A stretch of DNA of 64,000 nucleotides from Chiloscyllium plagiosum (taxonomy: Eukaryota), in the NCBI RefSeq assembly GCF_004010195.1, contig NC_057718.1, positions 64,795,548 to 64,859,547 of the forward strand. The letters are read 5' to 3'. Positions 42,166 to 42,819 of the stretch are shown piece by piece. A program made the position numbers and the translations under genes. The notes beneath the pieces were generated by a model. That model ran no database searches and was not told the DNA's origin. It saw only the letters and a program-made list of their open reading frames with translations. How positions within the stretch are numbered: the first letter of the stretch is position 1; each line of letters begins with the position of its first letter.

Positions 42166-42647
42166 TCATGAAGGCAGCCAAGTATTTAGCACAGAGAGCA
42201 GTGTGAGAAATGGGAAGCTTGGCTCATGGTGAGCAGTGGACTCCATTCTAGCTTTCCAAGTCATGTTCCACAAAGTACAGGCCTCAAACAGCCAGGCAAC
42301 GAAAACTGGACAAAGTGCTTTTCATGATATCGGGATGCTTTGGGCCCAGCAAATAGAAATAACAAGAATCAAATCATTACTTTTTTGTATATTGTTGATA
42401 GTACTGCAGATGATATTCTGTGAATGGGGAGACATCCTCTTATGAGGATATCATTGAAGCCTTTGTGTATTTTAGATTTCATCAAAACATTAAATTCCAT
42501 CTCCCATTACAAAGACAGGGTGAAAGAATCAGTTTATTTATAAATGATCTCCAGTTGACAATTGGAGCAATAAAAGGATGATTTTATAAGATGATTTAAT
42601 AATATTCATCTATGCTTTGGAAGAAGTTCTGCATGACTTTCTACAAC

Positions 42648-42741
42648 CTATTCCTGAAGAAGGGCCTGTGCCCGAAACGTCGAATCTCCTGTTCCCTGGA
42701 TGCTGCCTGACCTGCTGTGCTGTTCCAGCAATAAAGTTTCA
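42648..42741 (+). mobile_element. ~90-bp PLE-derived mini-insertion consisting of a hammerhead plus short tail
   Basis: Flanked by direct repeat ACTTTCTACAAC (42636-42647, 42742-42753). Confidence 0.75.
42650..42685 (+). ncRNA. Minimal type-I hammerhead ribozyme motif (PLE type), intact core
   Basis: ATTC-CTGAAGA-A-GGGC(CTGT)GCCC-GAAA-CGTC^GAAT: stem I ATTC/GAAT, CUGANGA box, 4-bp stem II, GAAA box, palindromic ACGT in place of stem III, GUC cleavage triplet. Confidence 0.8.
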
Positions 42742-42819
42742 ACTTTCTACAACTTATAAACATCACAAAAAGGGCAAAGGCAAATTAGAAAGAAAACTAG
42801 TATATCAGTACTCTAGTAT

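What the first reader, a model, noticed from the sequence alone, without database searches (positions are those of the whole stretch)
42636..42757. A ~90-bp TSD-flanked insertion that is essentially an intact hammerhead ribozyme
Seen: ATTC-CTGAAGA-A-GGGC(CTGT)GCCC-GAAA-CGTC^GAAT has both catalytic boxes, complementary stem I, a perfect stem II and a GUC triplet. It is followed by about 55 nt of PLE tail, and the unit sits between 12-bp direct repeats (ACTTTCTACAAC). Established: Penelope-like elements carry minimal type-I hammerheads with a palindromic stem III that cleave as dimers. Inference: this is either an extreme 5' truncation of a PLE or a member of a tiny non-autonomous ribozyme-bearing retroelement family mobilised in trans. 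It is antisense to RPS6KA2.
Basis: partly seen in the sequence, partly recalled or inferred. Interest (0 to 1): 0.72.

Follow-up and report, generated by a model that had tools for sequence, protein, structure and literature searches.

The report
Penelope retroelement stub with minimal hammerhead
This is a real, recent 90-base insertion in a bamboo-shark-type gene intron, missing at the same spot in a related species, made of the end piece of a very abundant Penelope-like jumping gene with a predicted self-cutting RNA motif that is likely idle in this lone copy; it is an ordinary example of a known kind.

Summary
The insertion is real. A contig from a related species skips exactly 106 nt here and keeps one copy of the repeat. 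The target duplication is 16 nt (15 of 16 match), not 12. The 36-nt minimal type-I hammerhead at 42650-42685 has every core base; my descriptor found 0 such motifs in 100 shuffles of the window. The copy lies antisense in an RPS6KA2 intron. It is not a stand-alone element: 9 more strong matches lie in the window, and two run 1 kb upstream into an RT-thumb/GIY-YIG ORF remnant of Neptune/Nematis type. 3' ends fall into two classes about 33 nt apart, the known Penelope 'tail'. 5' ends are not random: they bunch at the hammerhead's upstream edge. Likely mechanism: internal priming at the tail site on an uncleaved RNA, then run-off at the RNA's 5' end. Solo minimal hammerheads from truncated Penelope-like elements are published. 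Side results: a subfamily burst in this species, and strand-biased A-to-G changes in the catalytic GAAA in RNA reads. Cleavage was not tested.

The parts
42636..42651 (+). 5' copy of the 16-nt target-site duplication; its last 2 nt (AT) are also the first 2 nt of element homology
   Evidence: (single copy in the related species' empty site)
42650..42685 (+). minimal type-I hammerhead: stem I 42650-53/42682-85, core 42654-60, extra A 42661, stem II 42662-73, GAA 42674-76, palindromic ACGU 42677-80, predicted cut after C42681
   Evidence: activity untested
42686..42744 (+). pseudo-LTR body downstream of the cut site, ending at the short one of two family 3' ends; last 3 nt (ACT) shared with the target
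   Evidence: (loose ends behind 42746)
42730..42735 (+). AATAAA, part of a subfamily signature that is common in organism A and nearly absent in organism B
   Evidence: use as a polyadenylation signal untested
42742..42757 (+). 3' copy of the target-site duplication (1 mismatch at 42754)
36455..51997 (-). host intron of RPS6KA2 (RSK3) that holds the insertion, antisense to the hammerhead
48773..49887 (-). longer, older relative: 1.1-kb 5'-truncated PLE (RT C-terminal part + GIY-YIG remnant, decayed hammerhead, short 3' end), 14-nt duplication
11316..12364 (-). longer relative: about 1 kb with CX4CX2C linker and GIY-YIG remnant ahead of a decayed hammerhead; its 11-nt duplication is not above chance
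59097..59286 (.). relative: two arms head to head, broken inside the hammerhead, exact 17-nt duplication
8632..9003 (.). relative: inverted arm plus partial tandem, 15-nt duplication
42029..42160 (-). relative: 132-nt stub with decayed hammerhead, 16-nt duplication, 500 nt from the finding

Best explanation
This is a recent 90-base insertion of the hammerhead-bearing end module (pseudo-LTR) of an abundant Penelope-like retrotransposon of Neptune/Nematis type, likely copied by that element's own enzymes from an uncut RNA and likely inactive as a ribozyme in this lone copy. Steps. (1) Shown: a 16-nt AT-rich target was duplicated; inferred: by a staggered cut of the GIY-YIG nuclease. (2) Shown: the copy ends about 63 nt downstream of the predicted cut site, at the shorter of two family 3' ends; inferred from the Anolis PLE work: reverse transcription starts inside the RNA at one of two sites that bound the 'tail'. 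(3) Shown: the copy is continuous across the scissile bond; inferred: the template was uncleaved (or religated). (4) Shown: it stops at the upstream edge of stem I, where many close relatives also begin, with 2 nt of homology to the target; inferred: this is likely the RNA's 5' end, so the stub is a run-off copy of the transcript leader rather than a random break. (5) Inferred: with no stem III loop it would need a second hammerhead to cleave, and the host pre-mRNA carries only its reverse complement, so it would not cut RPS6KA2 RNA. Identity as a PLE stub is about 0.95 sure; the full mechanism with run-off about 0.6.
For: Empty site: organism B contig skips 42648->42755 (106 nt); the 2 organism A DNA runs laid both run from the unique left flank into the hammerhead and show no such joint. 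B differs by 24 of 525 flank bases. PLE link: Pfam GIY-YIG E 9e-6 about 0.5 kb upstream of a relative, same strand; 4 full-length relatives of 813-891 aa all have a C-terminal GIY-YIG and a CX5CX2C linker, 2 of 4 an RVT_1 hit, and their tblastn match to the 48.8-kb copy begins at 49885-49894, at the duplication boundary 49887. 3' ends: 11-21 nt after the shared TCCAG box in 5 arms, 49-51 nt in 3, 34 nt in 1 with an internal gap, 4 nt in 1. 5' ends: loose ends before 42650 agree at only 0.39-0.46 in the 3 DNA runs; simulated unrelated flanks sharing their last 4 nt give 0.42-0.43, 8 nt 0.49-0.51, 30 nt 0.89. In the window, 6 of 8 arms that start upstream of the core start within 30 nt of it; 2 of 8 start 1 kb upstream (read by eye). 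No pile of read ends at the cut site among 904 RNA reads. PMC11167929: internal priming, two sites bounding the tail, uncleaved RNA as main substrate. PMC4209133: single minimal motifs did not cleave.
Against: No genome was held, so 5' ends were not counted genome-wide; the clustering rests on 14 arms read by eye and on an agreement score whose formula I assumed. The RNA reads' loose ends agree at 0.64, so some expressed copies share longer upstream sequence. 5 of 14 arms start inside or downstream of the hammerhead, which run-off alone does not explain. No transcription start site was mapped; the initiator-like word at 42650 is a recalled consensus and is also constrained by stem I pairing. 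The RNA library is a poly(A) single-cell library, about 2 in 100 of it read, a weak test of ends. No intact ORF of this subfamily was found.
Confidence: 0.6

Rival explanations
1. Ordinary premature 5' truncation: reverse transcription began at the 3' pseudo-LTR of a long transcript and stalled at, or was joined early near, the hammerhead hairpin. The bunching comes from RNA structure or microhomology, not from an RNA end.
For: Stem II is stable in context (0.95). 2-nt microhomology at the 5' junction. 5 of 14 arms break inside or below the hammerhead and 2 run 1 kb on. Heavy 5' truncation is standard for PLEs (PMC8557442, PMC8969392 passages).
Against: This copy passed stem II and stopped beyond stem I, which is barely formed in context (0.01). 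No arm in the window starts between about 30 nt and 950 nt upstream of the core, a gap that gradual truncation does not predict.
Confidence: 0.2
2. A dedicated non-autonomous mini-element: 95-130-nt master copies with their own internal promoter and AATAAA are transcribed and mobilised in trans, like a SINE.
For: The AATAAAG-type 3' end carries 9-11% of family depth in two organism A runs against 0.008% in organism B, so a young subfamily burst happened. Close relatives share only a few bases upstream of 42650. Non-autonomous PLE derivatives exist (Chlamys passage in PMC8557442; preprint 10.64898/2026.07.22.740005).
Against: Subfamily-type contigs and RNA reads continue into the long tail (16, 19 and 67 loose ends behind 42746), which this copy lacks, so it could not be a full master. 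No poly(A) loose end among the rows shown (319 rows not shown). 0 of 904 RNA reads lie on this locus's flanks. Run-off from an autonomous element predicts the same short copies.
Confidence: 0.15
3. A monomer of a non-LTR retrozyme, copied from a circular RNA made by double hammerhead cleavage.
For: A circular template would also give a copy that spans the cut site. Table 5c lists joints from 42683-42695 back to 42650/51 (7 of 12 rows shown) and one from 42746 to 42682, which could be head-to-tail units. The preprint reports retrozymes in its one chondrichthyan genome.
Against: No head-to-tail array of this unit in the window. The motif is the minimal type, not the canonical type of retrozymes (PMC7229834 passages). 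The unit is 95 nt against about 300 nt. 3' ends match the PLE tail classes. The orientation of the 5c joints is not given, and head-to-head arms are common here.
Confidence: 0.04
4. The element is old and was deleted cleanly in organism B by recombination between the repeats.
For: One outgroup contig only.
Against: The copy keeps all 3 CpGs of the hammerhead region and an intact core, belongs to a subfamily nearly absent from B, and has 113-2861 near-identical (99%+) records in the organism A runs.
Confidence: 0.02

Closest known systems
Solo minimal hammerheads (min-HHR) of truncated metazoan Penelope-like elements (Cervera and de la Pena 2014, PMC4209133)
   Same: Type I, no helix III loop, palindromic 15.2-16.2 positions, extra base before stem II, G10.1-C11.1, 4-bp helix I; found mostly as single dispersed motifs tied to truncated PLEs, also in fish Neptune and Poseidon elements.
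   Different: Stem II is 4 bp (7-8 bp in Schistosoma families). Sharks do not appear in the parts I read. Copy number here looks far above the 4,000-9,000 motifs given for coelacanth and Xenopus, though summed depth is no copy count.
Poseidon of Anolis carolinensis (PAc; Frangieh et al. 2024, PMC11167929)
   Same: Two 3' end classes bounding an optional 30-40-nt tail; priming site downstream of the hammerhead; uncleaved RNA as template; AT-rich target; no read ends at the cut site.
   Different: The linked nuclease here has the CX2-5CX2C linker of Neptune/Nematis, which Penelope/Poseidon lack. The short 3' end lies about 63 nt below the cut (about 85-92 nt in PAc by my arithmetic). Run-off stubs are not discussed in the main text I read.
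Insertion units of EN+ PLEs with inverted pLTR, tail and TSD (Arkhipova et al. 2013, PMC3846280; Craig et al. 2021, PMC8557442)
   Same: Variable TSD, head-to-head arms, partial tandems, optional tail, 5' microhomology; all seen among window relatives.
   Different: TSDs here are 14-17 nt (8-10 nt in the rotifer examples); this copy is a single arm with no ORF.
Non-LTR retrozymes of animals (PMC7229834; preprint 10.64898/2026.07.22.740005)
   Same: Non-coding, type I hammerhead, derived from or mobilised by PLEs.
   Different: Not in tandem, minimal rather than canonical motif, 95 nt rather than about 300 nt, no circle shown.

Membership tests
Minimal type-I hammerhead (min-HHR) | Conserved core CUGANGA ... 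GAAA ... UH with stems I and II | tested here: met
   descriptor hit, 0 in 100 shuffles
Minimal type-I hammerhead (min-HHR) | No stable stem III; palindromic 15.1-16.1 | tested here: met
   ACGU at 42677-80, no loop; a cofold of two copies pairs it between strands
Minimal type-I hammerhead (min-HHR) | Stem covariation across copies | tested here: inconclusive
   77% of cells paired against at most 45% for slid partners, 4 of 8 pairs with double changes, but 218 of 500 shuffles reach that count; only 12 decayed rows; variants listed in loop II, none shown in stem II (7 rows not shown)
Minimal type-I hammerhead (min-HHR) | Self-cleavage as a dimer | not testable with these tools
   no assay; no pile of RNA ends at the cut site (weak test)
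Rfam hammerhead families | Score against Rfam models | tested here: not met
   no hammerhead family among 3 matches at E up to 10
EN+ Penelope-like element | Same terminal module linked to an RT + C-terminal GIY-YIG ORF | tested here: met
   for 2 relatives in the window; this copy itself has no ORF
EN+ Penelope-like element | Optional 30-40-nt 3' tail | tested here: met
   two end classes about 33 nt apart
EN+ Penelope-like element | Inverted arms, partial tandems, variable TSD | tested here: met
   5 of 7 candidate duplications exceed chance; 3 head-to-head units
Neptune/Nematis clades | CX2-5CX2C linker before a C-terminal GIY-YIG | tested here: met
   CX4CX2C in the 11.3-kb remnant; CX5CX2C in 4 of 4 long relatives; feature taken from PMC8557442
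Neptune/Nematis clades | Placement in an RT phylogeny | not tested
   no RT core in the window; Neptune and Nematis not told apart
Non-LTR retrozyme | Head-to-tail tandem units each with a hammerhead | tested here: not met
   single copy; no array in the window; genome-wide not testable
Non-LTR retrozyme | Circular RNA intermediate | not testable with these tools
   one poly(A) library only
SINE-like non-autonomous family | Fixed 5' and 3' ends and masters without an ORF | tested here: inconclusive
   5' ends bunch but are not fixed; two 3' ends; masters not identified

The most novel reading that the evidence does not exclude
The stubs are a self-sustaining, ORF-less retroelement class: a 95-130-nt capped Pol II unit (initiator at the first base of the hammerhead, AATAAA gained at the 3' end) that hijacks the PLE enzyme, burst to tens of thousands of copies in one shark lineage, and is held in check by ADAR editing of the hammerhead's catalytic GAAA when head-to-head copies form double-stranded RNA. 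It would be one of the smallest mobile units known and a natural case of editing that switches off a ribozyme.
Probability: 0.12. Interest if true: 0.65.

Novelty: new member of a known kind. Interest (0 to 1): 0.25.

Why it matters
As a single locus it matters little: it is one of very many such stubs. It is a clean, dated specimen (empty site known, both junctions readable, core intact) that shows a PLE copying straight across an uncleaved hammerhead in vivo, in line with the in vitro Anolis result. If the 5' ends mark the transcript start, the stubs give a genome-scale readout of PLE priming and start sites, which bears on the open question of what the PLE hammerhead is for. The presence/absence difference is also a usable lineage marker.

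Tried and rejected
Whole genome: none held, so no genome-wide end plot. Rfam: no hammerhead match. Whole-unit folding: z -0.25, no special stability. Pfam on the three long stop-to-stop frames: 0 of 3 hit; on four in-frame pieces 1 of 4 hit. The search for homologous proteins with two ORF pieces: nothing at E 0.001; the full HMMER search then found 866 relatives. Metagenome scan with a 23-nt family motif: 4 loci, each matching over only 25 nt, judged chance and dropped. Run search: no RNA holder listed; this says nothing on expression. Duplications at 11.3 kb and 20.4 kb (11 nt) are not above chance (23 of 120, 23 of 300); those at 50.7 kb and 1.9 kb are 8-9 nt and none was found at 39 kb. My first reading of the loose ends, that relatives run far upstream so 5' ends are random, was dropped after the simulation. 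A cap-derived G before 42650 (5 of 7 joints in table 5c, nominal p 0.005) is only a hint: rows are selected, may repeat one event, and orientation is not given. The A>G at 42710 is not strand-biased (p 0.19). Lunse et al. 2017 was not held; I saw only its title in a reference list. Earlier-findings searches by sequence and by 8 words gave nothing.

Full report
Observation. The sequence is as described. A minimal type-I hammerhead spans 42650-42685 on the + strand, with a predicted cut after C42681. My descriptor finds 2 motifs in the window and 0 in 100 dinucleotide shuffles. Rfam does not detect it. The flanking direct repeat is 16 nt with one mismatch, 106 nt apart; 1 of 300 random window pairs reaches that length. 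Kinase exons on the - strand flank the site; one matches RSK C-terminal kinase domains and the last exon is 100% identical to Chiloscyllium RSK alpha-2 proteins, with alpha-2 the only paralogue named among the 120 listed. So the host is a bamboo-shark-type genome and the copy is antisense in an RPS6KA2 intron.

It is an insertion. I laid 4 of the 24 listed runs on 42200-42830. The organism B contig covers both flanks and skips 106 nt (42648 to 42755), keeping one copy of the repeat. Both organism A DNA runs carry the left junction into the hammerhead and show no skip; contigs show presence, not absence. B differs at 24 of 525 flank bases. Element homology runs from 42650 to 42744, so 2 nt at the 5' junction and 3 nt at the 3' junction are shared with the target; 90 nt are unique.

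It belongs to a very large Penelope-like family. BLAST finds 9 further strong matches in the window and 3 weak ones; 12,852-17,129 contigs per DNA run lie on the insert at 90% or more. Two relatives extend about 1 kb upstream into a broken ORF on the same strand. One piece hits Pfam GIY-YIG at E 9e-6 (the Atlas agrees). Its full-length relatives are 813-891 aa with a CX5CX2C linker and C-terminal GIY-YIG, 2 of 4 with an RVT_1 hit. By PMC8557442 (passages) that linker marks Neptune/Nematis; no RT tree was made. Of 7 candidate duplications tested, 5 exceed chance (14-17 nt). Head-to-head arms and a partial tandem are present.

Ends. 3' ends form two classes, 11-21 nt and 49-51 nt after a shared box, with two outliers (4 and 34 nt). 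This is the optional 30-40-nt tail that PMC11167929 (main text read) ties to two internal priming sites. Our copy ends at the short site, about 63 nt below the cut. Of 14 arms read by eye, 2 start 1 kb upstream, 6 start within 30 nt above the core, 5 start inside or below the hammerhead and 1 could not be placed. Loose ends before 42650 agree at 0.39-0.46 in the DNA runs, as expected if relatives share only about 4-8 nt there (simulation, assuming a per-column majority score); RNA reads agree at 0.64. Earlier notes from this genome report the same bunching; they are unchecked and not independent support, but they made me re-examine the loose ends.

Mechanism. The nuclease likely makes a staggered cut; the RT likely primes at the short tail site, copies across the intact scissile bond and runs off at the RNA's 5' end just above stem I. 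The Drosophila Penelope has an internal promoter in its pseudo-LTR (PMC2377424, passages). An initiator-like word with A42650 as +1 is a recalled consensus, not a tool result. A lone motif is unlikely to cleave: single minimal motifs did not in PMC4209133 (results and discussion read), and stem I is barely formed within the unit. Among 904 RNA reads none lies on the flanks and no pile of ends appears, a weak test. Rivals are stalling at the hairpin (0.2), a dedicated non-autonomous family (0.15), a retrozyme circle (0.04) and deletion in B (0.02).

Covariation. On 12 window rows 77% of cells pair, against at most 45% for slid partners, and 4 of 8 pairs change on both sides, mostly between old subfamilies; the shuffle control is not passed for that count (218 of 500). 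I call this inconclusive.

Side results. The AATAAAG-type end makes up 9% and 11% of family depth in the two A runs and 0.008% in B; depth is not a copy count, but a lineage-specific burst is likely. In the RNA run, A>G at 42675, 42676 and 42677 reaches 24 of 289, 42 of 292 and 42 of 300 reads in the direction expected for hammerhead-sense RNA, against 1 of 228, 4 of 227 and 4 of 230 in the other (p 1e-5 to 9e-8) and at most 0.21% in DNA. This looks like A-to-I editing of the catalytic core, but DNA and RNA come from different animals, the reads pool many loci, and a common DNA variant (T>C at 42692) is also direction-biased.

Known versus new. Solo minimal hammerheads from truncated PLEs, the tail, inverted arms and uncleaved templates are published. 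Eight library searches found no description of this shark family or of editing in PLE hammerheads; PMC8455134 (one passage) only lists Penelope in the whale shark. The library lacks most subscription papers and Repbase/Dfam were not searched. The retrozyme preprint (introduction to discussion read) covers one chondrichthyan; its supplements could not be seen and may hold this family. PMC3846280, PMC6765202, PMC7229834, PMC6155905 and PMC8969392 were seen as passages only. Verdict: real, well delimited, a new member of a known kind; interest 0.25.

Noticed in passing
window 42675-42677 (family-wide RNA reads, run X21): Strand-biased A>G in the hammerhead GAAA, 8-14% against under 2%, nearly absent in DNA: looks like A-to-I editing that would disable the core.
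   Followed up: partly
window 42730-42738: Subfamily signature with AATAAA: about 10% of family depth in organism A, 0.008% in organism B; a recent lineage-specific burst.
   Followed up: partly
window 42650-42695 and 42682-42746 (table 5c): Joints from 42683-42695 to 42650/51 in 7 of 12 rows shown, 5 with a G just before 42650, and one joint 42746 to 42682, exactly the base after the cut site. Orientation not given: inverted arms, hammerhead-only tandems or cap-derived G.
   Followed up: partly
window 44810-46221: A second PLE family with inverted end repeats around an assembly gap, a GIY-YIG-like frame (no Pfam hit) and its own minimal hammerheads (44883 on -, 7-bp stem II, passes the descriptor; 46148 on +).
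   Followed up: partly
window 8632-9003: Compound unit: inverted arm, a direct arm, about 70 nt that continue past the long tail, then a jump back to just above the hammerhead; shows what follows the tail in the full element.
   Followed up: partly
window 20324-20547, 50704-50855, 1865-2000: Older subfamily with longer stem II and compensatory changes in stem I; the 20.4-kb unit is head to head.
   Followed up: partly
window 39071-39181: A family stub broken inside stem II, with no duplication found; its flanks resemble the LINE-like repeat at 42834-42990 (CR1 label recalled).
   Followed up: no
window 42564: All three DNA runs, both organisms, have an extra T here: possible one-base error or rare allele in the assembly.
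   Followed up: no
window 42797-42824: A 12-nt direct repeat with 16-nt spacing at the edge of the downstream LINE-like fragment.
   Followed up: no
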